DNA of 64,000 bases from an uncultured bacterium (lineage in GTDB: Bacteria > Patescibacteriota > Minisyncoccia > UBA6257 > 2-01-FULL-56-20): the NCBI GenBank assembly GCA_963719425.1, contig OY970382.1:522880-586879 (forward strand). Direction: 5' to 3'. A program made the position numbers and the translations under genes. Below the pieces are notes generated by a model. It did no database searches and had not been told where the DNA came from. It worked only from the letters and a program-made list of their open reading frames with translations. Shown piece after piece: positions 18,155-32,067 of the stretch (positions are counted from its first letter, which is position 1; each line of letters starts with the position of its first letter).

Positions 18155-18228
18155 TGCATCCTACCACGCCGCCCATTAAAACTTTCTTAAAGGAAACTTG
18201 CGCACGGGAATTTTGCTACAATGGACAT

Positions 18229-18971: not shown

Positions 18972-19283
18972 TCCGGCGTAGCTCAATGGTAGAGCGGCTC
19001 CCTGTCAAAGAAGGCAGCGCGCACTGGAAACGGTGCGATGAACATCTCGGGATAACGGTGAAGGCTAACCCGCAAGGCATGCGAACACCGTGGGAACCCC
19101 AGCCGTAAATGTGCGTTGCGCGCAGTTACGGCTGGGGACTCCGTAGAGACTAGATACCGAGACGCCTAATGTCCACTTTTCGGTTTTCGTGGGCGACGGC
19201 GATGATATAGTCCACGCCTTTTGGAAACATTGGGATTACGTGTAAGGAGATGGTTCCAGGTTCGAGTCCTGGCGCCGGAGCCA
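18972..19283 (+). tRNA. Intron-containing tRNA, most likely tRNA-Asn(GUU); group I intron in the anticodon loop
   Basis: 5' exon TCCGGCG-TA-GCTC-AATGGTA-GAGC-G-GCTCC-CTGT. 3' exon TAA-GGAGA-TGGTT-CCAGG-TTCGAGT-CCTGG-CGCCGGA-G-CCA. Perfect acceptor pairing. A U|...G| splice junction with an IGS GGCAG pairing to CUGU favours a loop of CUGUUAA. Splicing after U33 would instead give UGU (Thr). Confidence 0.6.
19006..19242 (+). ncRNA. Group I intron (~237 nt, no ORF) inside the tRNA anticodon loop
   Basis: Conserved core elements seen directly: R-like GUAGAGACUAGAUA (19150-19165) and S-like GAUGAUAUAGUCC (19201-19213) forming P7. Terminal G before the 3' exon. Candidate P1/IGS GGCAG near the 5' end. 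Several stable hairpins. Confidence 0.6.
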
Positions 19284-20769
19284 GTAGTTGGATTGAATGG
19301 GTTTTATTAAAATTTTCACGCGCGGAGCGAAGCTCCGCGTATGTTGTAGTGGGGATAAACTCGACACGGCGGTTTTTAAGAAAGAGGTTCGAGCCGAAAA
19401 TTTTCTGCAGGGATACCTTCTTCAAACTTAGGTCGTCATTGGTCACCGCTTCGGTGAGTAATGACGCGTCTTTTACCCATTCCCGCATAGGTTCGAGCCA
19501 AGCACAAACGTCCCGTCCCAAACGGGCAATCTGCTCCTCTAGAGTCTTCTTCTCTGACATAAGGACACAACGACGCTCAAGATAGGCGTCGCGCTCAATA
19601 TCTTGGGCGATATATATGTCGGTTAAGCGTTCCAACTGGCGGTCTATGTCCTTAACCTGCTCGCGCAGGGTTTGGATCGCGCGGGAGGCAACGCTTCCTG
19701 CTTTCTGTTCATCCTCTTTCATCCTCTGCTCATAGTATTCGACAAAAATCGGCGGCATGACGTATTGGGACAAGAGCGTGGAAAGATCGGCGGCGAGAGT
19801 TTCTTCGCGGACGTAGGGTTGTAAACATCGAACCGCCGACTTTTTGGTACAGCGATAATAGACGTAGCGGTGGACGTTTCCATTCTTTTGTTTTTTAATC
19901 CGCTCCTCGGCAGTGATCGCCATATGGCACTCGCCGCACGTGAGCAAGCCGCACAACGCTTGCGGGTCCTTCGTCGCAGTCTGCGGGTGGCCGCGCTTCA
20001 CGATAATTTTCTGCACCTTATCCCAAAGCCGCTTCTCAATGATCGGCGTATGTTTGCCTTCAAGCAGTTCTCCCTTGTAGACGAAATGGCCGTAGTAGAA
20101 CGGATTGGTGAGAATGAACTTCACGCGGTCTTCGTGCATCTCGTTGCCGTACAGACTTTTTACGCCGTTCTCGAACAGGAACTTGCCGATGTCTTGAATA
20201 CGGGAATTGCCCTTCGCATACAACTCGAAGGCCGCCCGTATGACGGGGGCCTTCTTCTTGTCCACGACAATCAACCTCGTGCGCGGATTGTTGAGATAGC
20301 CAACAGGAGCTGTACCAGGAAACTCGCCGCGCTTCGCTTTCTGCCGCAATCCCCGCGCCGTATTGGAACTCAGATCGCGGATATACTGGTTCGCCATTCC
20401 GAATTCGACGGACATCAAAAGTACGTTGTCGGCGGGATAGTAGCTTCGATCGTAGGCCTGAATGTGTGCTATCGTCCCACTTTGCAAGAGCCACTGGATT
20501 TGTGCCGCGTCCACTGGATTACGAGCTAAGCGGTCGATTTTCCAACAGATAATACCTTGGGCTTCGCCCGCGTTTATACGGGACATCATCTCATTAAATA
20601 TGGGACGGCCAGGAATTTTAGCCGTTTGTCGTTCCTCGAACTCCGCGACGATATTCAATCCTTCCTTCTTGGCAAGCTTATGCAAGACGGCAATCTGATC
20701 TTCAATCGAATGGACTTGCCTGTCCTTATCGTCGGTTGATTTGCGAGCATAGAGAAAATAGGTGGTCAT
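19150..20769 (-). CDS. Large serine recombinase (resolvase catalytic domain + recombinase domain + zinc ribbon); C-terminal ~90 codons overlap the IR and the tRNA/intron, so the true end is uncertain
   Basis: N-terminal YARKSTDDKDRQVHSIEDQ (catalytic Ser region) and the zinc ribbon CGLLTCGECH ... YYRCTKK. The reading frame continues through the tRNA 3' exon to a TAG inside intron element R. Confidence 0.75.
   Translation of the reverse strand: MTTYFLYARKSTDDKDRQVHSIEDQIAVLHKLAKKEGLNIVAEFEERQTAKIPGRPIFNEMMSRINAGEAQGIICWKIDRLARNPVDAAQIQWLLQSGTIAHIQAYDRSYYPADNVLLMSVEFGMANQYIRDLSSNTARGLRQKAKRGEFPGTAPVGYLNNPRTRLIVVDKKKAPVIRAAFELYAKGNSRIQDIGKFLFENGVKSLYGNEMHEDRVKFILTNPFYYGHFVYKGELLEGKHTPIIEKRLWDKVQKIIVKRGHPQTATKDPQALCGLLTCGECHMAITAEERIKKQKNGNVHRYVYYRCTKKSAVRCLQPYVREETLAADLSTLLSQYVMPPIFVEYYEQRMKEDEQKAGSVASRAIQTLREQVKDIDRQLERLTDIYIAQDIERDAYLERRCVLMSEKKTLEEQIARLGRDVCAWLEPMREWVKDASLLTEAVTNDDLSLKKVSLQKIFGSNLFLKNRRVEFIPTTTYAELRSARENFNKTHSIQLLAPAPGLEPGTISLHVIPMFPKGVDYIIAVAHENRKVDIRRLGI
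19280..19417. repeat. Inverted repeat IR-L (138 bp), begins at the tRNA CCA end and covers the last ~45 codons of the recombinase
   Basis: Reverse complement equals 22972..23109 with one mismatch (checked base by base). Confidence 0.85.
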
Positions 20770-21037
20770 AGGCTTTGTTCCTTTATAACAAGATAGAATA
20801 ATAAAATCAAGAGCAATACCTATTTTCAGGCTTAATTACTGGATAATTCACCCATTTCTAGGAATAAGATTATATTGGTGAAAAGGAACACGACGATTAA
20901 TAACACCTATAAATACCGTGTTTACTCATCAATCTCAATGCTAACCACTAGCATTTACTGTACGGGGCTTGCAAGTAATCGCTAACTATGCTAGGGTCAT
21001 AAGTGCCGAGAGCCATCGGCCTTAATCAATTCAAACT

Positions 21038-21454
21038 ATGCCAAAACAACACGACATACTAAAGAAACTTTTTACGGATGATTCTGAGGTCAATCCTGAA
21101 GAACTCTTTAAGCTATTATCCCCTTTTGTCAGAATAAATAAAAAGAGTAAGGAGGTGGTTTTCTTAGACGAGGCTCATAAACAATCTGTAAAAAATAAGA
21201 TCGTCCTTTTCTTATTAGCCAAGAAGGTACTCTTTTTATTAGGTGAAGCTGATACCGATCACGTTCAACCTAAGATTATTATTAAAGAATCTGGGATGCC
21301 AAGAGGGACCGTGCTACCGACATTGAAATCTCTTCGCGATAGTAAAACTGGCTCTTTCGTAAGCACTGAAGACGGTTCTTACTATATCTCCAGTTATCAG
21401 ATCGCCAAGATAAAAGAAAAAAACATTTTTAAGAACCATGAAAAAGACAAATAA
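21038..21454 (+). CDS. Hypothetical protein (AT-rich segment)
   Basis: ORF in a compositionally distinct low-GC block. Confidence 0.4.
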   Translation: MPKQHDILKKLFTDDSEVNPEELFKLLSPFVRINKKSKEVVFLDEAHKQSVKNKIVLFLLAKKVLFLLGEADTDHVQPKIIIKESGMPRGTVLPTLKSLRDSKTGSFVSTEDGSYYISSYQIAKIKEKNIFKNHEKDK

Positions 21455-21785
21455 AGAAATCATTGATCAGATAAGAGTTCTACTGAATGAGCTAGAGGGA
21501 TCGAAGCCCAGAGAACTGAACGCCCAGACTCATCATGCTAAGCAAACGATGAAGATCGGAAGGATTCCGACGGGCTGTATAGGTGCTATCCAGACATTAG
21601 TCGATGAGGGATTCTTAGATGAACTCCGAACTGTCCAGCAGGTTGTCGTAAAACTCAGGGAAGAAGGACAACCCTACAGCAGAGCATTAGTCTCTATGAA
21701 CTTATTGAATTTAGTGAAGCCTCCTCGGAAATTACTCCGACGCGTTAAAGATCAAGATCAGTGGCAATACATACTTAGAAAATAA
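21438..21785 (+). CDS. Hypothetical protein (AT-rich segment)
   Basis: ORF overlapping the previous stop by 17 nt, suggesting an operon. Confidence 0.4.
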   Translation: MKKTNKEIIDQIRVLLNELEGSKPRELNAQTHHAKQTMKIGRIPTGCIGAIQTLVDEGFLDELRTVQQVVVKLREEGQPYSRALVSMNLLNLVKPPRKLLRRVKDQDQWQYILRK

Positions 21786-21787
21786 AC

Positions 21788-22183
21788 ATGGCCAATCAAC
21801 TTAAAGACATACTAGACCGACTGACTAGATTAGAGGAGGTGGTGTTTGGTAACAAAGAGAAACCCGATAGTAAATTAAAGATACCAAATAAGAAAGGCAG
21901 ACTAGATTTCTCTCTTAACGAGAGAGCCTTTCTAAAAAAATACTTCTTTAAGTTTAATGGTCAACAAACATTCGCTTTAATTTGCGCTGCCTTATCGAAG
22001 GGAAAAACGGACACTCCAATCAATCTCTCGGGTATAAAGAAGACTTGGAAAAATTGCCAAGGAATCATTAAGTATCCATACAGTTCTATCTACTCTACCA
22101 GAGCGAAAGAGAACAATTGGGTTGTTCCAGGAAATAAGGCTACCTATTCGATTCGGCCTTCGTGGATAGAAATATTTAATTAA
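21788..22183 (+). CDS. Hypothetical protein (AT-rich segment)
   Basis: ORF tightly packed with its neighbours. Confidence 0.4.
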   Translation: MANQLKDILDRLTRLEEVVFGNKEKPDSKLKIPNKKGRLDFSLNERAFLKKYFFKFNGQQTFALICAALSKGKTDTPINLSGIKKTWKNCQGIIKYPYSSIYSTRAKENNWVVPGNKATYSIRPSWIEIFN

Positions 22184-22187
22184 TCCG

Positions 22188-22964
22188 ATGACAGAGGAAG
22201 AAGCTATCAAAAATGTATTGATCAAGGTCTTCCCTGCCAAGCACATTACCTCCGCGCTCGAACACTTCTCAGAGGCAGAGACAAAGTACCAACAGGAGGA
22301 TTGGGAAAAATCCTTATTGAGAAGTGGCAAGTTTATCGAATCAACATTAAAAGCCTTGTACGTTTATGCTGGTAAAACATTGCCGCCTAGTCGGCAATTT
22401 AAGGTCAGCACGGTCATTCAACAATTAGGACAACTTAGTAATAGCTACGACGACACTATCAGGCTAACCATCCCTCGTAGCTGCTCTTTCATTTACGATA
22501 TAGTTAGCAATCGAGGTGCGCGGCACGATTCAGACGATTTTGATCCAAATAAGATGGACGCTAGTGTTTCGATACCAACAATTTCATGGATATTGTCTGA
22601 AATGATCCGTTTCGCGAGTCAAACATCGCCGAGTAACGATGACGTTACTTCATTCACTGAGAGTCTGATGGAGAAAAAACATCCCCTATTTGAAACGATA
22701 GATGGCAGAATCTATGTTAACCACAAAGGATTGACTCCAAAGGATTTAGCCCTACTACTCTTATACGCGTACTATCCTAAAAGAATATCGCGAAAGGAAC
22801 TAACAGATTCTATAGAGAGGCATGGCAACTTTACCAGAAATGCAATTGCTATCGCGCTAACGAATATCAAAGACTTGGTTGATGATGACGGGACTGGTAA
22901 TTGGAAACTTCGTGAAATCGGCAGAGCTAAAGCCGCGCGGATATTAAATACATTACACTCATAG
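22188..22964 (+). CDS. Hypothetical protein (AT-rich segment)
   Basis: 258 aa ORF with no motif recognised. Confidence 0.4.
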   Translation: MTEEEAIKNVLIKVFPAKHITSALEHFSEAETKYQQEDWEKSLLRSGKFIESTLKALYVYAGKTLPPSRQFKVSTVIQQLGQLSNSYDDTIRLTIPRSCSFIYDIVSNRGARHDSDDFDPNKMDASVSIPTISWILSEMIRFASQTSPSNDDVTSFTESLMEKKHPLFETIDGRIYVNHKGLTPKDLALLLLYAYYPKRISRKELTDSIERHGNFTRNAIAIALTNIKDLVDDDGTGNWKLREIGRAKAARILNTLHS

Positions 22965-22971
22965 TTTATAA

Positions 22972-23109
22972 GGTATCCCTCCAGAAAATTTTCGGCTCGA
23001 ACCTCTTTCTTAAAAACCGCCGTGTCGAGTTTATCCCCACTACAACATACGCGGAGCTTCGCTCCGCGCGTGAAAATTTTAATAAAACCCATTCAATCCA
23101 ACTACTGGC
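22972..23109. repeat. Inverted repeat IR-R (partner of 19280..19417); on the + strand it encodes ...KVSLQKIFGSNLFLKNRRVEFIPTTTYAELRSARENFNKTHSIQLL then ASSYESTRTYFARNLS*
   Basis: Direct comparison. It would provide an alternative, stop-terminated 3' end for the recombinase if the segment inverted. Confidence 0.85.
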
Positions 23110-23149
23110 TAGTTCGTATGAGTCCACTCGTACCTATTTTGCCCGAAAT

Positions 23150-23520
23150 TTGAGCTGATTTACCCCATCATTCACCCCATCATTCGGGTATACTCGGAAT
23201 GATGGGGTAGGAAACCGAAATGCCCCCGTATATGCTCGCTTTTCTGTCGCACCGCCTCACAAACCTCAGACCCTACTTCACTCCGGTTTACCCCTACGTT
23301 CACCCCTACGTTCGGGATATGCCGGAACGTAGGGGTATGAAGTCTCAATCTCCTTACAAACGTTGGGATTTTTGATCCTCGCCGTTCAAAACTGGAAGTC
23401 CTACTTCACTCCGTTTCTGCCCTACCCAAGTGGTGTGCTCAGCCCCTCAGCCGCTCGCTGCTGCTCGGGCTTCGGGGCTTCGCGTATGGCGCGCCCAAAT
23501 TCCTCCCCCACAAAATAGCT
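23150..23520. repeat. Left arm of a ~400 bp imperfect inverted-repeat pair; contains two doubled-arm hairpin modules (23166-23215 and 23290-23340), three ctacttcactccg motifs and a 74-bp block (23436-23509) perfectly mirrored at 26465-26540
   Basis: Reverse-complement comparison with 26430..26800. Confidence 0.75.
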
Positions 23521-23571
23521 CACGGCCGCATGGCCGAGAAAATTAATAAAGATGTAAAATGTAGATGAATC

Positions 23572-25956
23572 ATGTCCAAACTAACAAAACAACAAAGACG
23601 TTCGAGAAGGAAGAGGCGGAAAGATAAGAAACGCAGAGAGAAACGCCTAAGCAGCAAAAAGACTAGGCAAAAAGCCGAGCCGTGGGTTCCTGTAAAAATG
23701 AAAATGTTTGAATTCCCCAATCCATTTCCCTCAAATGTCCCACAAGAGAAACGTTTGGAGATAATCAGATCGATAGGGGCAAACGCTAAAAGGGAGTTTG
23801 ATTTGAAATATCCAAAGATCGAAGAGTGGTTTAAAAAGTATGATCCCTTATATCTATTATCTTTTTGTCTTACTTATTTCGCATCAACACCAGAAGGAAT
23901 AGACCCAGAGGCTACTGGAGAAATGGACTTCTTTCCGTTCTATATAGAAATTATGCAAGCATTTGCGTTATATCAGGAGAGGAATTACTCTCCTAACCCC
24001 CTTTTCGGCGATGCTTCTGTTTTGAATAAAGAAATCAAAGAAATTGGAGAGCTTATGAGCGTAAGATTGATAGACATTCCTAAGGATCTAAAGACTGATG
24101 AAGAAATCCTTGCCTATAAATTAAGGACTGAAATGATGATGCAAACAACAGCTGTGAGGAATTGGGCATATTTTCATCAAATGAAAAGAGTCTCCTTGGC
24201 GTTGGCTAGTAAGATTGATAGTGATTTTAAAAAAAGCTTTGGCATCGGATCTTCTGATTTGATGAAGCTATTATTTAAACTTTCTGAAGAAAGAAATGAC
24301 TTATTAAACGACCATCTGGATAGAGTAAGAAGTTTTATAAATAAGCCTGATTATAAAGAAATAATGGAGGCGTACAACCAAGCATTCCCATCTAACAAAC
24401 GAATTGAGGCGAATGAAATGGAAGAACTCTGGAACAAAGCTGGCAAGAATAAGAAACATTTGACCGAGATGCTAATTTGCCACGCTGATTTAAAGTTGGA
24501 GAATATTTACTCTTTCACGGTAGACCATGCACTATCTCTCCTCGATGGAAATATAACCAAAGAAACTCTTAAAAATATCCTAAAAAAACTTTCTTACAAT
24601 TTTGGGGGGCTGAAAGATTTTAATAAAGAGCACATTATTCTTAGCAATCCAGTGCACAGTAAACCATTCATTAAGATTGATGAGGAAAAGTTCTATTCCG
24701 CAATTTGGGTGATATTGCCGCACCTTACATTAGACCTACTAGAAGATTTTGTCTGGGAAGATGAGGATCTTCGAGAAAAATATTCTGATATAAGATCGAA
24801 ATATCTGGAAGATGAAATAGTCAAGCTTTTTAAGAGTAATTTTCCGAATGGTACAGTTAGCAGGGGCAGTCTTTGGAAAAGTGGAATTCTTGGAAGGGAG
24901 TATGAAAACGATCTCACTCTTACTATTGATACATTCGCCATTGTAGTTGAAGCGAAATCTCAGAAATTAAGCGATCCGGCCAAACGGGGCGCACCCAAAA
25001 GATTGTTCGAAACCCTTAAAGAGTTAATAGAAGAACCATCTGAACAGGCTTTGAGATTTATAGATTATTTACAAAAGAATAAAAAGGTTCATGCATTTAA
25101 AAATAAACACGGAGAAACCAATACCATCGACAGCACCAAAATTAAGTATTACGTACCTCTCGGAGTAACTTTCTCTCATTTGGGTATGATTGGAAGTAAC
25201 TTAAAGAAACTGATTGAAGCCAAAGTCACAGACAAGCCTCTCGAAAAACTGGCTCCATCCATAAATTTTACCGACCTTGAAGGGGTCTTTGAGTTACTCC
25301 CGCTAGAAGCGGAGAAGATTCACTACCTAGCGAGAAGAAGAGAATTTGAAGCTCACGTTGAATACGATGGCGATGAGTTAGATCTTCTGGCCCTCTATCT
25401 CGAAAACGGATTCAATATCGGAGTTGCTGAGTACGACAAGAAGCATGTCTTCTTTCTTGGCATTAAATCAAAAGAATTAGATCCATATTTCATTGGAATA
25501 AACGAAGGAAGGAAGATCGCTAAACCAGAATTTGCTATGACTCAGTGGTGGAAAGATCTACTGACTACTATTTCTATGAGGAAATTTGATGGTTGGATAG
25601 AAACTTCCTTTGTTTTACTTAACAGCACCAAAGAAGATCAGGAGAAGTTTGAGGCGGGATTAAAAGAACTAATGGGACGCATTAAATCTGGGAAGGTTGA
25701 GAAGCCTCATAATTGGGTAGCTTTTATAACGGGGCCGGAAAGACGGCGATATGCAATTATTGGATATCCATATACCACTTCAGACAAAGAACTACGCGAT
25801 ACAATAATGTCTGAGGCAATTGACGGATCCGAAAAAGAGCACAAGGACATTCGAGGGATTGTGGTAATAGGAATAGACATGAATCATGCCAACTATCCTT
25901 ATAGTGTCTTCGCGCGAAGATTATCCACAAATCTTTTTGATACACTCACGCTTTAA
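23572..25956 (+). CDS. Large hypothetical protein (794 aa), extremely basic N-terminus (KQQRRSRRKRRKDKKRREKR...), possible PD-(D/E)xK-like motif (TIDTFAIVVEAKS)
   Basis: Single long ORF at ~35-40% GC. The nuclease-like motif is a weak visual call only. Confidence 0.45.
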   Translation: MSKLTKQQRRSRRKRRKDKKRREKRLSSKKTRQKAEPWVPVKMKMFEFPNPFPSNVPQEKRLEIIRSIGANAKREFDLKYPKIEEWFKKYDPLYLLSFCLTYFASTPEGIDPEATGEMDFFPFYIEIMQAFALYQERNYSPNPLFGDASVLNKEIKEIGELMSVRLIDIPKDLKTDEEILAYKLRTEMMMQTTAVRNWAYFHQMKRVSLALASKIDSDFKKSFGIGSSDLMKLLFKLSEERNDLLNDHLDRVRSFINKPDYKEIMEAYNQAFPSNKRIEANEMEELWNKAGKNKKHLTEMLICHADLKLENIYSFTVDHALSLLDGNITKETLKNILKKLSYNFGGLKDFNKEHIILSNPVHSKPFIKIDEEKFYSAIWVILPHLTLDLLEDFVWEDEDLREKYSDIRSKYLEDEIVKLFKSNFPNGTVSRGSLWKSGILGREYENDLTLTIDTFAIVVEAKSQKLSDPAKRGAPKRLFETLKELIEEPSEQALRFIDYLQKNKKVHAFKNKHGETNTIDSTKIKYYVPLGVTFSHLGMIGSNLKKLIEAKVTDKPLEKLAPSINFTDLEGVFELLPLEAEKIHYLARRREFEAHVEYDGDELDLLALYLENGFNIGVAEYDKKHVFFLGIKSKELDPYFIGINEGRKIAKPEFAMTQWWKDLLTTISMRKFDGWIETSFVLLNSTKEDQEKFEAGLKELMGRIKSGKVEKPHNWVAFITGPERRRYAIIGYPYTTSDKELRDTIMSEAIDGSEKEHKDIRGIVVIGIDMNHANYPYSVFARRLSTNLFDTLTL

Positions 25957-25968
25957 TAACAAGAGGGC

Positions 25969-26346
25969 TTAGTTTTTGAATTTTTCCAAAATCAGCCCAA
26001 CCAGCCAGTAGCAGAATCGGTAGAGCACGAAAGTGAGCACGTCAAAATAGGGATTGAAAATGATTCCCCATCCTGCTATCCAGATGATGATTGCCAGAAT
26101 CCCAAAAAAGAATATGTGGTAGAGCAGACTGCCGAGCATACCCGTTTCTCCTAGCAGGGCTTTTACCGAAGCGAGAACGAGAAGGAAGAAAAGGCCTCCG
26201 ACTATCCACGGCAGATAAGGCACTGAAGCACGCAGAGTTGCGGTGGCGACAGTTTGGAATATGAAGGTGCCCATTTCCGTTGAGGAGGCCAGAATCCTTT
26301 GGCCTAAATCCGGCGGTAGCTTGATAACTGGCAGGGTCGAGGTCAT
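25969..26346 (-). CDS. Small integral membrane protein (125 aa, 4 TM)
   Basis: Hydrophobic ORF convergent with the 794 aa gene. Confidence 0.4.
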   Translation of the reverse strand: MTSTLPVIKLPPDLGQRILASSTEMGTFIFQTVATATLRASVPYLPWIVGGLFFLLVLASVKALLGETGMLGSLLYHIFFFGILAIIIWIAGWGIIFNPYFDVLTFVLYRFCYWLVGLILEKFKN

Positions 26347-26429
26347 TTCAAGCCAAACATAAGCCAGTAGGACGATAAGGTCAAATCAAGCGTAGTTTCA
26401 TAGAAAACCACCTATTCAGAAAGATGTTG

Positions 26430-26800
26430 AGCTACCACCCTCGGGCGCGCCAAAAGGAGGGGTTGGGGGAGGAATTTGGGCGCGCCATACGCGAAGCCCC
26501 GAAGCCCGAGCAGCAGCGAGCGGCTGAGGGGCTGAGCACAGACCCGTTTAGGGGTATTGTCGGGGGTCAGGGTTTTCGAGAAAAGCGAGGTCTTGTAAGG
26601 GCAGAAGGCCGTCAGGGTAGTCAATCGTGATTGACGGGGTGATTGACTAGGTAAACCGGAGTGAAGTAGGACTTTGGATTTTGTCCGGCGAAACTCAAAA
26701 AGCCCAGCGTTTGCGGGGCGATCTGGACTTGCTACCCCTTCATTCCGAGCATACCCGAATGAAGGGGTGAATGAAGGGGTAAAACAATCAGGAATTTGCC
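26430..26800. repeat. Right arm of the ~400 bp imperfect inverted-repeat pair; contains one doubled-arm hairpin module (26737-26790) in inverted orientation
   Basis: See the left arm. Hairpin loop CGAGCATACCC is the reverse complement of left-arm loop GGGTATACTCG with one change. Confidence 0.75.
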
Positions 26801-27014
26801 ATAAAATACGCTTGGATCTGCTCATACAAGCGAGCAGTACTGGACTTTGAGAGTACAAATCGAATAAATCGCTAAGTTTCATGCGCTTTCTGTGGTCATG
26901 TCACTATTAGACCACACGGATCATTAAAAAATTCTAAAATCCGAGCCTTGCGAAAACCCGTTTCAGGAACATGTCAGGTAGAATAATTGACGTCTGATCC
27001 GACATAAGCGTACC

Positions 27015-27524
27015 ATGGGCTCCATGAGGATGCCCTGGCCCAAGAAAGTCCTAATAAAAAAGATCGGGGAGATCCTGAAGGACGGCGTTACTTACGTACT
27101 CATCGTCCTTGCATTCCTGCTCTGGCGCTTCGCCTTCGGAAATAAGTTCAAATGGGTAGAGATAAGCCCCCTGGCGCCACCTAGCATCTTTATCCGCTCG
27201 TTCTACAGCGCATTTACGTTCCTAACGCTAGGGGCACTCCTCTACGTGGCGAAATTTTATAAAGTTCTACACGACATCCTTGTGAAGGGCTTTGGACTCT
27301 GGGGCTTGTATAACGCCGTCAAGGCCGTCGTCTGGCTTATTTTGATGTTCATATCTTACGAATATGTCGTCCCGGCCATTTTTGCCGTTTTCAACACGAG
27401 TGCTACGATCCTCTACAACGTCATGGCGATCGTTTTGTATGTCGCCCCTCCGCTTGGCATTGCCATCATCCTGATCGCCGCCTATGGCCTCATTAAATAT
27501 AAATGGTTGAGCGCCAAAAGCTGA
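27015..27524 (+). CDS. Integral membrane protein (169 aa)
   Basis: Four to five hydrophobic helices with no motif. Confidence 0.4.
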   Translation: MGSMRMPWPKKVLIKKIGEILKDGVTYVLIVLAFLLWRFAFGNKFKWVEISPLAPPSIFIRSFYSAFTFLTLGALLYVAKFYKVLHDILVKGFGLWGLYNAVKAVVWLILMFISYEYVVPAIFAVFNTSATILYNVMAIVLYVAPPLGIAIILIAAYGLIKYKWLSAKS

Positions 27525-27533
27525 GGAAAATCG

Positions 27534-28652
27534 CTATAGACCAACCGAGTTAGCCCCATACTCTGCTTGTGCTTGCGTGAATTTGTCGTACTCCAACTGT
27601 GCAATGAGACTGCCGCGTGAAAAAGCGGAATACGACATGTACTGTTGCGCCGCTTTAGCCGCTTCGTCATTCCAGTTGGCTCCAGAATTATCTGCGCCAT
27701 AAACTGCTTGAGATTGTGTAAATTGATCGTGCACCAATTGAGCAACCAGCCCATCGTGAGAAAATGCCGTGTAGCTCAAATAAGATTGTGCCGCCTTAAT
27801 CGCCTGTGCGTTCCAGTCGGCGCCAACGTTATCCGCACCGTAAACCGCGTCAGACTGTGAGAATTGATCGTGCACCAATTGAGCAACCAACCCATCATGA
27901 GAAAATGCTGTGTAGTTTAAGTAAGACTGCGCCGCCCTAACCGCGTTCTGTTGGCTAACCGTTTCGTTTGATGCGGCTGATGTATTTTGACTGTTTGTTT
28001 GTTCAACTTGGGTCGGCGGCGGACTAGAAACGGTAATTATTCCGCTGCAAACCTGATTCATCGATTGGCTTCCCGAAACGATCTTCACGCTTGCACCCTT
28101 CGTACCCGTGGTCGAATACGTGAGCGACGTTGATTTTCCAGTACCGGATAGTCCGTCTGTTCCAGACCAAGAATACGAGTAACTACCGGTTCCTCCGGAG
28201 GCCTGAACTACCCATATCCCCGTCTGACCAGTGGTGAGGGTACTTTGTGCAGGAGAACATGTCGCGGAAATCGCCGGTGTCGGTGTCGGCTGTGGAGCAG
28301 TTGTTTGAGTCGTTTGATTTGGTGCAGCCGCATCGGTAACCGTTTTATTAGGCGTTGGCGTTTGCTGCGGAACGTTGGTGACTACAGGAGCCGAGGTGGT
28401 TGCAGTAGTTGACGCCGAAGGAACTGTTGCCGATTCGTTCGCGACTTGCTGGTTGGAATTTTCTACTGGGGAATTGCTTGTGGGGGTAGATGGGCTCGTG
28501 ACACCGATCAAAATAAAGAAAACTATTATTGCGCCGCCGAAAAGGAATCCGGCTTCCCTGCGGGATCGGAGCTTCAAAGACGAGGGCTTGCTAAGGCCCA
28601 CGATAAAACCAGCGATTGAAACGAGTAAGAGAAGGAAGAATAGACTGGTCAT
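27534..28652 (-). CDS. Membrane-anchored S/T-rich protein with three tandem Ltp-family-like repeats (host cell surface-exposed lipoprotein / superinfection-exclusion type)
   Basis: Three copies of AAQSYL-YTAFS-DGLVAQLVHDQF-QS-AVYGAD, matching the Ltp repeat pattern (SYL.YS.FSR.GL..QL.FD.F...A.YAV). N-terminal TM helix. Confidence 0.5.
   Translation of the reverse strand: MTSLFFLLLLVSIAGFIVGLSKPSSLKLRSRREAGFLFGGAIIVFFILIGVTSPSTPTSNSPVENSNQQVANESATVPSASTTATTSAPVVTNVPQQTPTPNKTVTDAAAPNQTTQTTAPQPTPTPAISATCSPAQSTLTTGQTGIWVVQASGGTGSYSYSWSGTDGLSGTGKSTSLTYSTTGTKGASVKIVSGSQSMNQVCSGIITVSSPPPTQVEQTNSQNTSAASNETVSQQNAVRAAQSYLNYTAFSHDGLVAQLVHDQFSQSDAVYGADNVGADWNAQAIKAAQSYLSYTAFSHDGLVAQLVHDQFTQSQAVYGADNSGANWNDEAAKAAQQYMSYSAFSRGSLIAQLEYDKFTQAQAEYGANSVGL
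27560..27960. repeat. Three ~123-bp tandem DNA repeats encoding the Ltp-like repeats
   Basis: Direct nucleotide-level repetition visible in the sequence. Confidence 0.7.
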
Positions 28653-28799
28653 TTCCTTATGGGTTCAGTGTACTATTCCATAATGAAGTTGCAAATCGGT
28701 TTGGTGTATTCCTAGGGGGCATATGACGTCCGCTCGCCGACGGTCTTAGCGGCAAGTTCCGCCAAATTGCGCCGTTCCATCATTCTTTCCTCAATGATG

Positions 28800-28865
28800 C
28801 AGGTTCGTACAGCCACTAAGCCGCCGGAGCACCTAGGAAAAGTATCGGGGAGACCGAGAGGTATC
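28800..28865. repeat. Junction motif copy a (..gGTTCgtacAgCCActaaGCCGCCGGAGCACCTAGGAAAAGTATCGGGGAGACCGAGAGGTATCG)
   Basis: Shares GCCGCCGGAGCACCTA..AAAAGT.TCGG..GAC..AGA.GG.TAT with copy d. Confidence 0.55.
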
Positions 28866-28932
28866 GCTTGATGTAACTAATTTTTTCCGTTACACTGTTG
28901 CTCGGAACGCAGTTATTTCAAGGAGGAGTACA

Positions 28933-29208
28933 ATGGCGAAGCCAATGAATCTAGGCAGCGGCGCTAATGCCGTGATTCTAAACGAACTCAGGAGGAAGGG
29001 AGGCACCGCCCGTTTGAATCTCAAGGTGCTTTCAGCCCAATCCAGCTTTAAACATGGGACTGTCAGCCATGCTCTCCATCGTTTGCAGAGAGAGGGGTTT
29101 GTCAAAATTGAAGAAGAGGGGGCCGGGTTGCGCTCACCCTTGGTCAGCCTCTGCTACCAGAACATTAATCTCCTGCCCTGCACAATCTCTACCCTGGGGC
29201 AGACGTAA
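28933..29208 (+). CDS. Small hypothetical protein, possibly winged-helix DNA-binding
   Basis: 91 aa with an HTH-like VSHALHRLQREGFV. Weak. Confidence 0.3.
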   Translation: MAKPMNLGSGANAVILNELRRKGGTARLNLKVLSAQSSFKHGTVSHALHRLQREGFVKIEEEGAGLRSPLVSLCYQNINLLPCTISTLGQT

Positions 29209-29282
29209 GCGTCTTTCACGCTTGACTTTTGCCCCTCCCACCTAAGATTGGCAACAAAAGTTGATAGTTTTAGGTGAGACAG

Positions 29283-29326
29283 GAGGTTCTCACGTCGTCC
29301 AGTCGCCGGAGCGGAGAATATCGCGG
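29283..29326. repeat. Junction motif copy b (GAGGTTCTCACGTCGTCCAGTCGCCGGAGCGGAGAATATCGCGG)
   Basis: Core GGTTCTC.C.TCGTCCAG.CGCCGGAGCGGA shared with copies d, e and f. Confidence 0.55.
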
Positions 29327-29330
29327 TAAT

Positions 29331-29702
29331 CTATTTGTCTTTATCGTCTCTGCGCACTTCGTTGGCGCCCACCTGGTTCCAATCGTGACGCCAGCGGCGC
29401 TTTTCCTCCAGGAGTTCGGCGGTGGGATTTTGAGCCCACCAACCGCCATCGGATCCCTTAAAGACAATGACATCCTTTTCCAAAACATCCGCAGGGAGGC
29501 CGTGGATATTTCTCTCTTCATCGATGATTATCGGCCAGAAAAGATGTCCTTTCAGGCTATCAACTTCTTTTGGTGTTAGCCTTCGCTTCGCCAGAACATC
29601 AAATACCTCGGAGACCTCGCCAGCATACACTTCTTTATCGGTTTCCCTGGCGTCGCCCTCGTTTGGGAGGGATTCGCTTGGCACCTCGGCGACGTTTTTC
29701 AC
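29331..29702 (-). CDS. Hypothetical protein (123 aa)
   Basis: ORF only. Confidence 0.35.
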   Translation of the reverse strand: MKNVAEVPSESLPNEGDARETDKEVYAGEVSEVFDVLAKRRLTPKEVDSLKGHLFWPIIIDEERNIHGLPADVLEKDVIVFKGSDGGWWAQNPTAELLEEKRRWRHDWNQVGANEVRRDDKDK

Positions 29703-29751
29703 ATTATCATTATAGCCTTAGTTCAATTAATTGTGCATTAGAGAGGTTCTA

Positions 29752-29784
29752 ACGAAGCGGAGAGATGAAATAATCAATAAACAG
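29752..29784. repeat. Junction motif copy c (degenerate: GAGGTTCTAACGAAGCGGAGAGATGAAATAATC)
   Basis: Matches the 5' and 3' ends of copy f. Confidence 0.4.
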
Positions 29785-29922
29785 GCGCTATTCCATACTT
29801 ACAGTAGGTTCGAACAGTTTCTACGATTCGGAGCGGATTTGACTTATCTATGATACATGTGATATAACATGCTCGGATGTTTTGAATTGGCGGCTATGCC
29901 TTAAAACAGCAGGAGGTGATAC

Positions 29923-30501
29923 TTGAGACCCTTCTTTTCCTATCTTGGCGGTGCCGTTGTTTTCCTCGTTTCGCTCTGGTACGCCTGGCGAATCTGGAGA
30001 AAGCGCGTCGAGCCTCAAAACTCGGCAAGTTGGCTGATGTGGGCCGTTATAGATGCCACCGTTCTGGCGTGTACAATCGCTGCGTACAAACCAATGTGGT
30101 TGCCTCTTGGCTACATGGTTGGTGCCTCGACTATCACTCTAGCCCTCTTTATTCGAGGCACATGGCAATGGTCCGAGAAAGAAACATTCTGTGCAGTTGG
30201 CGCAGCGGTCGCCGTAGCAATTTGGCTGACGTGGAGTGCTGCGTATGGCATCCTCGCAGGAGTCGTCGCAATGACACTTGCAGGAACACCGCTTTACGTC
30301 GATCTCATCCGGAATCCAATCCGCAAGACCTGGCCAGTGTGGTTTTTCACGGCAGTGGCCTGTGTATGTACCCTTCTTGGTTCCGATTGGAGCTTCGCAG
30401 GGACGACGCTTGCCTGGGGCGGTCTCGCTTTCAACGGGAGCCTTACGCTGGTCGTGCTGCGACCCAACCGAAGAGGTCAACAGTGTCACAAAATAAATTA
30501 A
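29923..30501 (+). CDS. Integral membrane protein (192 aa, ~6 TM)
   Basis: Hydrophobic ORF. Confidence 0.45.
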   Translation: MRPFFSYLGGAVVFLVSLWYAWRIWRKRVEPQNSASWLMWAVIDATVLACTIAAYKPMWLPLGYMVGASTITLALFIRGTWQWSEKETFCAVGAAVAVAIWLTWSAAYGILAGVVAMTLAGTPLYVDLIRNPIRKTWPVWFFTAVACVCTLLGSDWSFAGTTLAWGGLAFNGSLTLVVLRPNRRGQQCHKIN

Positions 30502-30580
30502 CCTAGCCCGATCCACAAAAGGAGGTTTGATCGGGCCCAGTCCTAAGGTTGTAATTGAATTATAATTTCAGGACTGCAGA

Positions 30581-30646
30581 TGGGTTCTCCCATCGTCCAG
30601 CCGCCGGAGCACCTAACAAAAGTTTCGGACGGACCAAGATGGGTAT
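30581..30646. repeat. Junction motif copy d (GGGTTCTCCCATCGTCCAGCCGCCGGAGCACCTAACAAAAGTTTCGGACGGACCAAGATGGGTATA)
   Basis: Best-preserved copy. Lies 65 bp upstream of the 30711 start. Confidence 0.6.
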
Positions 30647-30710
30647 AGTTCCAATGGTCGAATTAGTTCAAATCCAAGCCGTGAGTCAAAGTGTTTGATA
30701 TAATTCAATT

Positions 30711-31487
30711 ATGGAGTCCTCGCCCAGCCCGGAACCAAAAGCGGCAATCCCCAAACCAGAACATTTCCCAAACCACCTCAAAGAAGGTGTTCCCGCAATC
30801 ATGGCTTGCATCGGAACCCCCGATGATTTCAGAGAAAGTCCCGGCCTTGAGAAATTCGTCTTTCGAAAAACCTCGTTTATGGATATTCCGGGGGCTTACA
30901 ATGTAGACTATTCCGGGCCTCACCGCCTCTTGGTAGAACAAAATTTCAAAAATCCCGAAACCGGATCCTATGTCATATCTCCGATTGACGATTTTAATAA
31001 GTTTTCTCAAACATTCCATGATTGCACGGGGTTGGTGGTCGCCGGTTATGACAAAAAGACTGGTCAAAACATATCCTTTTTGAGCCATCAAGATCCAAAA
31101 TATTTTTCGGAAACTAAAGCCAATCGGGACACTCTCATATCCGACCTGAGGGAACGCCTACTGGAGCTAAAGGAAAGGTGCCGCGAGGGAACTATTGATG
31201 CGGCAATCTTCGGAGGGAAGTATCTGAAACCGGTCAATTCGGAAAATTCTCGATTATACCAGAAAAACTATCTTGACTCCATCAAACTTTTAGCGGATGA
31301 GACGAAAAAAGTCCTCGGCTTCGAACCGATTGTAATGACCGGTCCGAAGAAAGCAAGGTATGGAGCAGATGATGTTTTTTATGACAATGAACACAGAAGG
31401 CTTTATATCGCGAGACCTGAGGTTGGCGACAGTTCAACGCAAAGTTTTACTCCGAGTGCCATAGAAGACCAAGAGAAAAAGTGGTAG
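30711..31487 (+). CDS. Hypothetical protein (258 aa)
   Basis: ORF only. Confidence 0.45.
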   Translation: MESSPSPEPKAAIPKPEHFPNHLKEGVPAIMACIGTPDDFRESPGLEKFVFRKTSFMDIPGAYNVDYSGPHRLLVEQNFKNPETGSYVISPIDDFNKFSQTFHDCTGLVVAGYDKKTGQNISFLSHQDPKYFSETKANRDTLISDLRERLLELKERCREGTIDAAIFGGKYLKPVNSENSRLYQKNYLDSIKLLADETKKVLGFEPIVMTGPKKARYGADDVFYDNEHRRLYIARPEVGDSSTQSFTPSAIEDQEKKW

Positions 31488-31524
31488 TTAACCACCGAGA
31501 AGCGTCCCAGTTCTACCCTGACCC

Positions 31525-31568
31525 CAGCACAATTGAGGTTCTCCCATCCTCCAGCCGCCGGAGCGGAT
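31525..31568. repeat. Junction motif copy e (GAGGTTCTCCCATCCTCCAGCCGCCGGAGCGGATTATGG)
   Basis: Lies 20 bp upstream of the 31586 start. Confidence 0.6.
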
Positions 31569-31585
31569 TATGGTAAACTGATGCC

Positions 31586-32029: not shown

Positions 32030-32067
32030 CGTCGTCCACGCTTCGGAGCGGAGATGAGATAATCAGG
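32022..32067. repeat. Junction motif copy f (CAGGTTCTAACGTCGTCCACGCTTCGGAGCGGAGATGAGATAATC), overlapping the stop codon of the 31586 gene
   Basis: The motif begins within the final codons ...YRF* (tac agg ttc taa). Confidence 0.55.

What the first reader, a model, noticed from the sequence alone, without database searches (positions are those of the whole stretch)
20770..26400. Compositional island: ~5.6 kb of markedly AT-rich DNA carrying six hypothetical genes
GC falls abruptly from roughly 60% to roughly 35-40% after the recombinase gene. It recovers only beyond the inverted-repeat arm at about 26.4 kb. The genes here (21038-22964 and 23572-26346) have no recognisable housekeeping function. 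Horizontal acquisition is likely, with the serine recombinase as the probable vehicle.
Basis: seen in the sequence. Interest (0 to 1): 0.55.

Follow-up and report, generated by a model that had tools for sequence, protein, structure and literature searches.

The report
Recombinase-borne defence island at a tRNA
The AT-rich stretch is real and is the cargo of a small mobile element that a large serine recombinase inserted at the end of a tRNA-Asn gene in a Patescibacteria (Minisyncoccia-like) genome; the kind of element is familiar, but its conserved inverted-repeat layout and its likely anti-phage cargo genes have not been described.

Summary
Observation confirmed, boundaries corrected. GC is 0.35-0.44 across 20.75-26.0 kb, against 0.55-0.60 in the host, with one internal GC-rich spike at 23.0-23.75 kb. 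GC3 of five of the six ORFs lies 4.5-5.7 sd below host genes.

Interpretation supported and extended. Two close relatives are syntenic at 84-85% nt identity exactly up to the tRNA-Asn 3' end (window 19281) and have no recombinase there. Their tRNA-downstream sequence reappears in the window at 28832. So 19282-28831 is an insertion. Its young part (E1, 19282-26832) consists of:
- an intact large serine recombinase (LSR) whose ORF runs antisense into the tRNA;
- a four-gene module ending in a HEPN-like/wHTH protein;
- a 794-aa protein with an invariant PD-(D/E)xK motif, plus a 125-aa membrane protein.

LSR relatives (70-87% identity) sit at tRNA-Asn or tRNA-Gln with other cargo: type I R-M, Mrr, AAA_15/21, Vsr+Dcm.

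Unexpected features:
- The crossover lies inside the LSR ORF.
- An inverted copy of the LSR 3' end, its native tail and a ~350-450-nt non-coding module lies inside the element. This layout is conserved in five loci, and one related locus shows the flipped orientation.
- The tRNA heads an array of pseudo-tRNA-end repeats that separate strain-variable cassettes.

Cargo function is inferred, not shown.

The parts
18972..19283 (+). tRNA-Asn(GUU), the integration target. It is split by a 237-nt group I intron (19006-19242); the exons are 18972-19005 and 19243-about 19283.
   Evidence: The intronless allele in L146 is called tRNA-Asn GTT by ARAGORN. blastn joins window 19011 to 19243. Rfam RF00028 scores 22.5 bits, E 1.4e-3, below the gathering score. 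Exon 1 ends in U and the intron ends in G. ARAGORN misses the split gene in the window.
19273..19300 (.). Left junction S1: tRNA end CGCCGGAGC joined to the antisense 3' end of the recombinase gene (CAGTAGTTGG...).
   Evidence: Synteny with L145 and L146 stops at 19281. Empty sites read ...CGCCGGAGC|ACCTAG....
19150..20769 (-). Large serine recombinase gene (539-aa ORF). Residues 1-497 (19279-20769) are recombinase; the last 42 codons are antisense tRNA and intron.
   Evidence: Pfam Resolvase 3.8e-21, Recombinase 2.6e-15, Zn_ribbon_recom 4.3e-7. More than 4500 homologues, mostly Patescibacteria, align over 100% of the query. The tail ...APAPGLEPGT matches only tRNA DNA in L049.
19279..19419 (-). 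IR-a: the last 141 nt of the recombinase coding sequence, one arm of the 141-nt inverted repeat.
   Evidence: 99% complementary to 22970-23110.
20770..21037 (.). AT-rich (GC 0.36) divergent intergenic region between the recombinase and cargo module A.
21038..22964 (+). Cargo module A, four tightly packed genes: p138 (21038-21454), p115 (21438-21785), p131 (21788-22183) and p258 (22188-22964). p258 has an N-terminal HEPN-like helical domain and a C-terminal winged helix.
   Evidence: ORFs. No Pfam, PADLOC, PHROG or NCBIfam family reaches its cut-off. p258 has 643 representative homologues. AF2 pLDDT is 92.5. Foldseek hits HEPN structures and MarR/PadR wHTH. Invariant residues are E51, R109, H113, D124, R141.
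22970..23110 (+). IR-b: inverted copy of the recombinase 3' end, with no gene body attached.
   Evidence: The same feature occurs in L051/52, L053, L143 and L144.
23111..23158 (+). tail1: in frame with IR-b, it encodes SSYESTRTYFARNLS*, the native C-terminal tail of this recombinase family.
   Evidence: Translation. The same tail ends recombinases P0123, P0128 and P0147 and follows the repeat in L051, L143 and L144.
23159..23571 (+). ncR1: GC-rich conserved non-coding module. It contains triple-arm hairpin modules at 23159-23211 and 23287-23339, the box CCTACTTCACTCCG at 23272 and 23400, a 77-nt core at 23434-23510, and a terminal hairpin GCTCACGGCCGCATGGCCGAG.
   Evidence: Homologous blocks follow the recombinase in L051, L053, L143 and L144. 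No Rfam family matches.
23572..25956 (+). Cargo module B, gene 1: a 794-aa protein with an N-terminal helical region, a PD-(D/E)xK nuclease core (invariant E445, D447, E460, K462) and C-terminal alpha/beta domains.
   Evidence: 258 homologues with E <= 0.001 among the 8000 candidates scored; the 120 listed are 47-70% identical and come from several phyla. Alignment invariants. AF2 pLDDT 87, pTM 0.87. Foldseek PDB gives only weak hits, many of them PD-(D/E)xK nucleases. No Pfam, PADLOC or PDB sequence match.
25969..26346 (-). Cargo module B, gene 2: a 125-aa hydrophobic (membrane-like) protein, lineage-specific.
   Evidence: ORF. No homologue next to p794 relatives. GC3 is 0.579.
26347..26832 (-). 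ncR2 plus tail2 (26788-26832, encoding RLYEQIQAYFMANS*): a second, diverged copy of the tail and non-coding module, inverted relative to ncR1. It is the proposed right end of element E1.
   Evidence: tail1 versus tail2 local alignment is matched by 12 of 2000 shuffles.
26833..28831 (.). Older strain-variable insertion: a 169-aa membrane protein (27015-27524 +) and a 372-aa protein with three Ltp repeats (27534-28652 -). It is closed by a degenerate copy of the tRNA 3' end (28801-28831, ...GCCGCCGGAGC).
   Evidence: Pfam Lipoprotein_Ltp 2.2e-32. Absent from L145 and L146. Sequence.
28832..28867 (+). Original tRNA-downstream sequence (ACCTAGGAAAAGTATCGGGGAGACCGAGAGG), displaced 9.55 kb from the tRNA.
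   Evidence: 95% identical to the sequence that directly follows the tRNA in L146, and also in L145.
28832..32051 (+). Array of four small cassettes, each closed by a direct pseudo-tRNA-3'-end repeat (29285-29312, 30583-30610, 31537-31564, 32023-32051). Synteny with L145 resumes at 32021.

Best explanation
The AT-rich DNA is the cargo of a 7.55-kb integrative element (E1, 19282-26832). A large serine recombinase (LSR) inserted it at the 3' end of tRNA-Asn(GUU) in a Patescibacteria (Minisyncoccia-like) genome.

Shown:
- The insertion is absent from two close relatives, whose synteny breaks exactly at the tRNA end.
- The recombinase gene is intact and abuts the tRNA.
- Related recombinases sit in the same position at tRNA-Asn or tRNA-Gln with different cargo, much of it restriction or other defence genes.

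Inferred mechanism:
- The element's attachment site lies inside the recombinase ORF, about 15 codons before its native stop, at a conserved GCT/AGC.
- Integration therefore swaps the native tail (xxYxxxR[ST]xF[AS][QR]N...) for codons read off the antisense tRNA.
- The displaced tail and its downstream non-coding module (tail2-ncR2) end up at the far end of the element. Excision would rebuild the native gene.
- The element also carries an internal inverted copy of this whole region (IR-b, tail1, ncR1). As a result the recombinase plus module A is bracketed by 141-nt inverted repeats, and module B by about 350-nt inverted repeats.
- This lets the recombinase block sit in either orientation, through integration by either copy or through later inversion. 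Both orientations are seen among relatives.

The cargo most likely serves phage or foreign-DNA defence. Module A is a HEPN-like/wHTH protein with three small partners. Module B is a stand-alone 794-aa PD-(D/E)xK nuclease-type protein. E1 is the youngest layer of a tRNA-anchored stack of strain-variable cassettes.
For: Composition and codon bias.

Empty sites and exact breakpoints:
- L145 4669-10980 matches window 12847-19281.
- L146 matches to 19011 and then 19243-19281. The 41 nt that include and follow the tRNA end in L146 are 95% identical to window 28822-28862.

Recombinase:
- Domains. Family size and hosts.
- C-terminal tails of 40 homologues: about 30 read through a tRNA T-arm (GLEPGT, GFEPTT and similar). 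Three (P0123, P0128, P0147) carry the native tail.
- The same tail is encoded in frame after IR-b and in ncR2.

Relatives:
- L050: tRNA-Asn, cargo HTH + Mrr.
- L053: tRNA-Gln.
- L144: tRNA-Asn, cargo Vsr + Dcm and others, plus Replic_Relax + NfeD between a second repeat pair.
- L143: syntenic host, type I R-M cargo.
- L051/52: cargo HTH + AAA_15/21.

Inverted copy of the recombinase 3' end:
- L051/52 115 nt at 100%, L053 170 nt at 92%, L143 174 nt at 85%, L144 173 nt at 90%.
- L052 has the tRNA next to the cargo side, so it is the flipped isomer.

794-aa family:
- Found inside a type I R-M/toxin-antitoxin island (L003).
- Found next to an LSR at tmRNA (L004/5), next to tmRNA (L046), and next to an nSTAND ATPase (L006).
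- AT-richer than its far flanks in 32 of 37 loci.
- Invariant D...ExK. Among its weak Foldseek matches, PD-(D/E)xK nucleases are the recurring class.

p258 fold.

Independent assembly: a Logan contig of the same sample breaks inside the 77-nt perfect repeat.
Against: - No circular or excised form was observed, and no within-population inversion; both need reads.
- The crossover dinucleotide is not determined. Only a shared AGC/GCT is seen at all junctions.
- Canonical LSRs recombine attP with attB only, so recombinase-catalysed inversion between the observed sites would be non-canonical. RecA-dependent inversion is equally possible.
- The closest recombinase relative (L050, 87%) lacks the inverted copy, so the copy is not indispensable.
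- The repeat copies are only 85-92% alike in L143, L144 and L053. That fits decay as well as function.
- The DNA just right of tail2 is not significantly recombinase-like (160 of 2000 shuffles). The right end of E1 therefore rests on the tail2/ncR2 homology and its reading frame.
- No cargo protein matches a known defence family (PADLOC). Foldseek E-values are weak (>= 0.036 and >= 0.06). The p258 motif is R-x3-H, not the canonical HEPN R-x4-6-H.
Confidence: 0.8

Rival explanations
1. The recombinase is mainly an invertase. The 141-nt and roughly 350-nt inverted repeats make this a phase-variable, shufflon-like switch that flips the recombinase/cargo blocks, and the island was not brought in by the recombinase.
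For: Inverted repeats bracket both blocks. The layout is conserved in five loci. Opposite orientations are seen in the window and L052. Repeat pairs are near-identical in some loci (99-100%), as expected under ongoing exchange.
Against: The protein has the integrase-type large architecture (Resolvase + Recombinase + Zn ribbon, 497 aa), not the roughly 190-aa invertase type. The whole block is missing from relatives, with a flush breakpoint at the tRNA. Most homologues are fused to antisense tRNA, the mark of integration. L050 has no repeat. Flipping changes no obvious promoter-gene relation. The two roles are not exclusive.
Confidence: 0.12
2. The region is a decayed prophage, and the AT-rich genes are phage moron or lysogeny genes.
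For: It has a tRNA-adjacent recombinase, an Ltp-type (superinfection-exclusion-like) protein next door, and atypical composition.
Against: No PHROG match reaches significance for any of the seven cargo and neighbour ORFs scanned; the best E-values are 0.2 and 0.51. There are no structural, packaging or lysis genes in 19-32 kb. No relative was found in IMG/VR with the recombinase. Relatives of the element are 4-10 kb and carry R-M or other defence cargo only.
Confidence: 0.04
3. The low GC is intrinsic to these gene families or due to local selection, not a mark of recent transfer. Alternatively the inverted repeats are assembly artefacts (141 equals MEGAHIT's default largest k; 77 is a k-mer size SPAdes uses; both k values are from my own knowledge).
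For: The 794-aa family is AT-rich almost everywhere. The repeat lengths coincide with common k values.
Against: Presence/absence polymorphism is direct. Repeats of other lengths (115, 170, 173, 174, 318 nt) occur in the same position in independent assemblies from JGI, NCBI and ENA. The 141-nt pair has one mismatch, and the 77-nt core is embedded in a longer 75-83% repeat.
Confidence: 0.03

Closest known systems
Large-serine-recombinase integrative elements that stack at one chromosomal site and carry defence cargo (staphylococcal SCC/SCCmec-type arrays at rlmH; PMC11470126, seen as title and abstract only, the rest from my own knowledge)
   Same: A large serine recombinase encoded at the edge of a small non-conjugative island. 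Insertion at the 3' end of a conserved gene. Tandem accretion with short direct repeats. Anti-phage cargo exchanged between elements.
   Different: The target here is a tRNA or tmRNA 3' end in Patescibacteria. The crossover lies inside the recombinase ORF, so the C-terminal tail is swapped. There is an internal inverted copy of the attachment region. Kinship with Ccr recombinases was not tested.
tRNA/tmRNA-targeting genomic islands (classically tyrosine-integrase islands)
   Same: Integration at the tRNA 3' end, atypical GC, strain-specific presence, and arrays of partial tRNA-end repeats downstream (28801-32051).
   Different: The young element uses a serine recombinase. Its own far end (tail2) does not mimic the tRNA acceptor arm. 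Which enzyme built the pseudo-tRNA-end cassette array is unknown.
Integrases whose attP lies inside their own gene (SSV1-type integrases of Sulfolobus viruses; own knowledge)
   Same: Integration alters the integrase ORF, and excision restores it.
   Different: Those are tyrosine recombinases whose gene is split into two parts. Here only about 15 C-terminal codons are exchanged, and the enzyme probably stays functional.
Serine-invertase switches (Hin/Gin/Pin; PinQ/PinR inversion linked to phage defence, PMC12529663, abstract only)
   Same: A DNA segment bracketed by inverted repeats next to a serine recombinase. Both orientations exist.
   Different: The repeats are 115-174 nt and include coding sequence of the recombinase itself. 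The recombinase lies inside the invertible block. The enzyme is of the large, integrase type.
Genomic islands with R-M systems in Patescibacteria (PMC12455944)
   Same: Patescibacteria genomes carry islands with complete type I R-M systems, as seen in L143.
   Different: In that paper's main text the words recombinase, integrase and tRNA do not occur. The vehicle and target described here are not addressed there.

Membership tests
Large serine recombinase (integrase-type) | N-terminal resolvase catalytic domain with the Ser nucleophile, followed by the recombinase domain and zinc-ribbon domain | tested here: met
   Pfam PF00239 3.8e-21, PF07508 2.6e-15, PF13408 4.3e-7. The N-terminus reads YARKST....
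Large serine recombinase (integrase-type) | Element inserted at a defined attB, with flush junctions and an intact empty site in relatives | tested here: met
   Synteny with L145 and L146 ends at 19281. The tRNA-downstream sequence is found again at 28832.
Large serine recombinase (integrase-type) | Crossover at a 2-bp core within roughly 40-50-bp attP and attB sites made of imperfect inverted half-sites | tested here: inconclusive
   All junctions share AGC/GCT. The tail in reverse complement partly resembles the tRNA T-arm (GGTaCGAGT). Half-sites and the core dinucleotide are not resolved.
Large serine recombinase (integrase-type) | Excision to a circle that restores attP and attB | not testable with these tools
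   Needs reads or an experiment.
Genomic / defence island | Atypical composition, tRNA adjacency, a mobility gene, and strain-specific presence | tested here: met
Genomic / defence island | Cargo belongs to recognised defence systems | tested here: not met
   There are no significant PADLOC hits for the six cargo proteins or for 37 members of the 794-aa family. Sister elements do carry type I R-M, Mrr, Vsr+Dcm and AAA_15/21, with GmrSD + MvaI/BcnI R-M next to one of them.
Serine invertase switch (Hin/Gin type) | Small (about 190 aa) recombinase with a C-terminal HTH, acting on short (about 26 bp) inverted sites | tested here: not met
   The enzyme is 497 aa or more with a zinc ribbon, and the repeats are 115-174 nt.
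Serine invertase switch (Hin/Gin type) | Both orientations of the segment occur | tested here: inconclusive
   Opposite orientations occur in different genomes (window, L053, L143, L144 versus L051/52). A mixed population within one sample was not testable.
PD-(D/E)xK nuclease superfamily (p794) | Conserved D...(D/E)xK on an alpha-beta-beta-beta-alpha-beta core | tested here: met
   D447, E460 and K462 (with E445) are invariant in 37 sequences. They lie on strands 443-462 of a confident model. Fold matches are to the R2 endonuclease domain, McrC, Can2, Cdn1, Cap4 and Cas4, but with E >= 0.036.
HEPN (p258 N-terminal domain) | Four-helix up-down bundle | tested here: met
   Foldseek hits TT1696, AF0298, TM0613, sacsin HEPN and ST0689 with probability 0.99-1.0 and target TM-score 0.59-0.66. 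Pfam HEPN is at 6e-3, below its cut-off.
HEPN (p258 N-terminal domain) | Catalytic R-x4-6-H motif | tested here: not met
   The invariant R109 and H113 are spaced R-x3-H (RGARH). A ribonuclease function is therefore uncertain.
Group I intron (in the tRNA) | Match to the RF00028 covariance model at the gathering score | tested here: not met
   22.5 bits against a gathering score of 50 (E 1.4e-3). The P7 hallmarks AGACUA and GAUAUAGUC do align.
Group I intron (in the tRNA) | Precise insertion relative to an intronless allele, with U before the 5' splice site and a terminal G | tested here: met
   The L146 tRNA-Asn lacks window 19006-19242. Exon 1 ends in T and the intron ends in G.
Prophage | Phage structural, packaging or lysis genes | tested here: not met
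   No PHROG match reaches significance; the best E-values are 0.2 and 0.51. No such Pfam domains occur in 19-34 kb.

The most novel reading that the evidence does not exclude
This recombinase family forms a distinct class of self-rearranging integrative elements. The attachment site is embedded in the recombinase ORF and duplicated in inverted orientation. The conserved 350-450-nt GC-rich module downstream contains triple-arm hairpins whose 4-nt cores differ between modules but are identical within a module. Under this reading the module is a functional RNA or DNA device, for example a switch or specificity element that controls which site pair the recombinase uses, and so whether it integrates, inverts or excises. 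In addition, the 794-aa PD-(D/E)xK family would be a new single-gene anti-phage system.
Probability: 0.12. Interest if true: 0.8.

Novelty: new variant of a known kind. Interest (0 to 1): 0.55.

Why it matters
Patescibacteria have tiny genomes and few recognised defence systems, and how they acquire and exchange such genes is poorly described. This locus, read together with its relatives, shows several things:
- a concrete vehicle: an abundant large-serine-recombinase family with more than 4500 homologues;
- its targets: tRNA-Asn and tRNA-Gln 3' ends for this family, and tmRNA for a more distant recombinase that carries a p794 homologue;
- a cargo-swapping pattern: type I R-M, Mrr, Dcm/Vsr, an AAA_15/21 ATPase, a HEPN-like module and the 794-aa nuclease protein, with GmrSD + MvaI/BcnI R-M next to one relative.

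It also supplies two uncharacterised protein families with good structural models as candidate defence genes. If the ORF-embedded, inverted-duplicated attachment site is functional, these recombinases would be of interest as natural examples of orientation control. They would also be a source of new tRNA-targeting integrases.

Tried and rejected
- Pfam, PADLOC, PHROGs and NCBIfam scans of the cargo found nothing above the cut-offs.
- PDB sequence search with the 794-aa profile gave no hit; the p258 profile gave only weak wHTH hits.
- Rfam on the non-coding modules gave only chance-level hits.
- My first hairpin pattern was mis-specified and found nothing. The corrected pattern matches only the three window copies and none of the loci that hold a 794-aa homologue.
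- A 14-mer scan of IMG/VR for the CCTACTTCACTCCG box returned 89 chance matches, none with a recombinase or module homology. The recombinase has no relative in IMG/VR.
- The idea that the 794-aa gene is a transposon with terminal inverted repeats is rejected. Homologues elsewhere have no flanking inverted repeat beyond one 18-nt chance-level match, and several have direct repeats.
- The idea that DNA right of tail2 (26833-26892) and left of the outer repeat in L144 are remnants of a second recombinase gene is not supported.
- I searched for further copies of the tRNA end, the recombinase end or the tail in the window; there are none beyond those listed.
- p115 and p258 show no detectable similarity to each other.
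- The promoter/terminator scan is not above shuffles.

Full report
**1. The observation**

A sliding-window profile confirms the compositional break.
- GC is 0.55-0.60 from 14 to 19 kb and 0.50-0.54 over the recombinase gene.
- It is 0.35-0.44 from 20750 to 22999.
- It rises to 0.49-0.51 in a short spike at 23000-23749.
- It falls to 0.35-0.41 again until about 26.0 kb, then reaches 0.51-0.54 at 26.0-26.75 kb.

The stated interval has GC 0.406, against 0.547 for the rest of the window. Twenty host genes have GC3 0.663 +/- 0.052. The 138-, 115-, 131-, 258- and 794-aa ORFs have GC3 0.37-0.43 (z = -4.5 to -5.7). The 125-aa ORF and the recombinase gene are near host values. Two amendments apply: there is an internal GC-rich non-coding block, and GC to the right stays below host level until about 32 kb.

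**2. Anatomy**

*The tRNA.* Immediately left of the recombinase gene lies a tRNA that ARAGORN misses because it is split.
- Positions 18972-19005 and 19243-about 19283 are the halves of tRNA-Asn(GUU).
- They are separated by a 237-nt group I intron. The Rfam score is 22.5 bits, below the gathering score, but the P7 hallmarks align.
- A close relative, L146, has the same tRNA without the insert.

*The recombinase.* It has Resolvase, Recombinase and Zn-ribbon domains and is encoded on the minus strand. Its ORF continues 42 codons into antisense tRNA and intron (...APAPGLEPGT...). That part matches only tRNA DNA in the unrelated locus L049.

*Two pairs of inverted repeats* organise the rest.
- The last 141 nt of the recombinase gene (19279-19419) recur inverted at 22970-23110 with 99% identity. 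They bracket the recombinase and the four small genes.
- A roughly 350-nt imperfect repeat with a 77-nt perfect core (23156-23510 and 26464-26786) brackets the 794-aa and 125-aa genes.

After the inverted copy the frame continues for 15 codons, SSYESTRTYFARNLS*. A diverged version, RLYEQIQAYFMANS*, lies in frame at the inner edge of the right-hand repeat (26832 downwards).

**3. The insertion is real**

The protein encoded just left of the tRNA has 87%-identical orthologues on two long contigs.
- Both loci (L145, L146) share the transketolase, GAPDH and LTD-protein flank with the window at 84-85% nucleotide identity.
- The alignment ends at window base 19281, the ...CGCCGGAGC of the tRNA.
- Neither locus has a recombinase downstream.
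- In both, the tRNA is followed by ACCTAGTAAAAGTATC..GAGACCG.GA... The window has that sequence at 28832-28867, preceded by a degenerate copy of the tRNA 3' end at 28801-28831.

Hence 19282-28831 (9.55 kb) is inserted relative to these relatives.

Within it, the tail2 and non-coding module at 26347-26832 mark the end of the young element E1. The 2-kb remainder holds a membrane protein and an Ltp-repeat protein. It resembles the small cassettes further right. Those cassettes are each closed by a direct pseudo-tRNA-end repeat, GGTTCTnnCnTCnTCCAGCCGCCGGAGC, at 29285, 30583, 31537 and 32023. The same repeats separate other cassettes in L145 and L146, and synteny with L145 resumes at 32021. The tRNA therefore heads a stack of strain-variable insertions, of which E1 is the newest.

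**4. The vehicle**

The recombinase has more than 4500 homologues with E <= 1e-30. The few that carry source names are Patescibacteria: Paceibacteria, Minisyncoccia, Moranbacteria. I read the C-termini of 40 of them.
- About 30 run through an antisense tRNA T-arm (GLEPGT, GFEPTT and similar).
- Three (P0123, P0128, P0147) end in the tail consensus xxYxxxR[ST]xF[AS][QR]N.

The same tail follows the inverted repeat copy in L051, L143 and L144. It is therefore the native C-terminus. The crossover lies inside the ORF at a conserved GCT codon, about 15 codons before the stop. Integration exchanges the tail for tRNA-derived codons.

Contexts of close relatives agree:

| Locus | Recombinase identity | Target | Cargo |
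|---|---|---|---|
| L050 | 87% | reads into tRNA-Asn | HTH + Mrr |
| L053 | 81% | reads into tRNA-Gln | DUF347 + ABC transporter genes |
| L144 | 70% | reads into tRNA-Asn | Vsr, Dcm and others |
| L143 | 71% | same host locus as the window | complete type I R-M operon |
| L051/52 | 86% | reads away from tRNA-Asn (flipped) | HTH + AAA_15/21 ATPase; GmrSD and a MvaI/BcnI R-M lie next to it |

A more distant recombinase carries a 794-aa homologue next to tmRNA in L004/L005.

**5. The inverted duplication is a conserved design**

An inverted partial copy of the recombinase 3' end sits at the far side of the first cargo block in four further elements:
- L051/52: 115 nt, 100%.
- L053: 170 nt, 92%.
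- L143: 174 nt, 85%.
- L144: 173 nt, 90%.

In each it is followed by the tail and by a non-coding module homologous to 23159-23571. L144 also has the second repeat pair (318 nt, 99.7%) around a second cargo block, as in the window.

In L052 the tRNA abuts the cargo side, and the recombinase reads away from it into its native tail. This is the flipped isomer of the window's arrangement. L050 lacks the copy.

The simplest account is as follows. The free element carries two inverted copies of its attachment region. Integration through the copy inside the gene gives the window's form. Integration through the other copy, or later inversion by the recombinase or by homologous recombination, gives the L052 form. 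This step is inference; no reads were available.

The repeats are not assembly artefacts. Their lengths differ between independent assemblies. A Logan contig of the same sample breaks inside the 77-nt core.

**6. The non-coding module**

It is GC-rich (0.51-0.53) and has no Rfam match. It contains:
- the invariant box ACTTCACTCCG;
- a terminal hairpin;
- modules of the form arm-arm-loop-arm(reverse complement).

The 12-nt arms read ACCCCnnCnTTC. They share one variable core within a module, but the core differs between modules (ATCA, TACG, TTCA, TACA). Either 5' arm can pair with the 3' arm: 95-97% of cells are paired, with three covarying pairs in five copies. Five copies are too few for a firm structure call. 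The function is unexplained.

**7. Cargo**

*p794.*
- It belongs to a family with 258 hits at E <= 0.001; the 120 listed are 47-70% identical.
- The family is spread over Bacteroidota, Proteobacteria, Saccharibacteria and other Patescibacteria, Omnitrophota and Firmicutes-type MAGs.
- It has no Pfam, PADLOC or PDB sequence match.
- The AlphaFold model is confident (pLDDT 87, pTM 0.87). Foldseek finds only weak matches, among which PD-(D/E)xK nucleases recur (R2 endonuclease domain, McrC, Can2, Cdn1, Cap4, Cas4).
- E445, D447, E460 and K462 are invariant.
- Homologues sit inside a type I R-M/toxin-antitoxin island (L003), beside an nSTAND ATPase (L006), and in minimal islands next to tmRNA (L005, L046).
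- They are AT-richer than their far flanks in 32 of 37 loci. They are flanked, if at all, by direct repeats.

*p258.*
- It has 643 representative homologues.
- Its model (pLDDT 92.5) has a HEPN-like bundle plus a winged helix.
- Invariant R109 and H113 are spaced R-x3-H rather than the canonical HEPN motif.

*The other cargo genes.* The three small upstream genes and p125 have no informative matches.

A defence role is the best-supported guess, on three grounds: context, mobility and nuclease-type folds. It is not demonstrated.

**8. Comparison and verdict**

The thing works like a large-serine-recombinase integrative island that accretes at one site and trades defence cargo. The nearest described analogues are SCC-type arrays in staphylococci (PMC11470126) and tRNA-linked islands in general.

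Patescibacterial islands with type I R-M systems have been reported (PMC12455944). In that paper's main text the words recombinase, integrase and tRNA do not occur.

Four features are new relative to what I could find:
- the ORF-embedded crossover with tail exchange;
- the conserved inverted duplicate of the attachment region, with both orientations observed;
- the associated non-coding module;
- the two uncharacterised cargo families.

I rate it a new variant of a known kind, of moderate interest.

Noticed in passing
window 18972-19283: tRNA-Asn(GUU) is interrupted in the anticodon by a 237-nt group I intron (19006-19242). The intron is present in L145 and L143, absent in L146, and longer with an HNH-like ORF in the metagenomic locus L049.
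   Followed up: partly
window 45492-48128 (-): A second AT-rich (GC 0.376) single-gene island lies between purH and purA. It encodes an 878-aa fused HSDR_N + N6_Mtase/Eco57I/MmeI-like type IIG restriction-modification enzyme.
   Followed up: partly
window 28801-32051; L145 13650-17150; L146 10790-18390: A tRNA-anchored array of direct pseudo-tRNA-3'-end repeats (..GGTTCTnnCnTCnTCCAGCCGCCGGAGC). About half are followed by a copy of the tRNA-downstream sequence. The repeats separate small cassettes that differ between strains (MarR-like, YdjM-like and unknown proteins). The enzyme responsible is unknown.
   Followed up: partly
window 23159-23211, 23287-23339, 26731-26783 (rc); L053, L143, L144, L051: Triple-arm hairpin modules (two direct copies and one inverted copy of a 12-nt arm). 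The 4-nt core is uniform within a module but differs between modules. Either 5' arm can pair with the 3' arm.
   Followed up: partly
window 27534-28652 (-): A 372-aa secreted or membrane protein with three Ltp repeats (PF07553, the family of a phage superinfection-exclusion lipoprotein). It sits in the older insertion next to E1, and its repeats give a 250-nt internal direct repeat (27553-27944).
   Followed up: no
L046 7591-7629 and 10532-10571; L012, L027, L021: Homologues of the 794-aa gene form minimal single-gene islands flanked by 40-174-nt direct repeats. In L046 the island sits directly after a tmRNA gene.
   Followed up: partly
L144 1208-4058: In a related element the second inverted-repeat pair (318 nt, 99.7%) brackets a Replic_Relax (replication-relaxation) gene and an NfeD/SDH-type protease. 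This hints that some family members may replicate or be mobilised as plasmid-like circles.
   Followed up: no
window 3911-4175, 5180-5329, 5950-6124: Direct repeats of 150-175 nt at about 80% identity near the start of the window, unrelated to the island.
   Followed up: no
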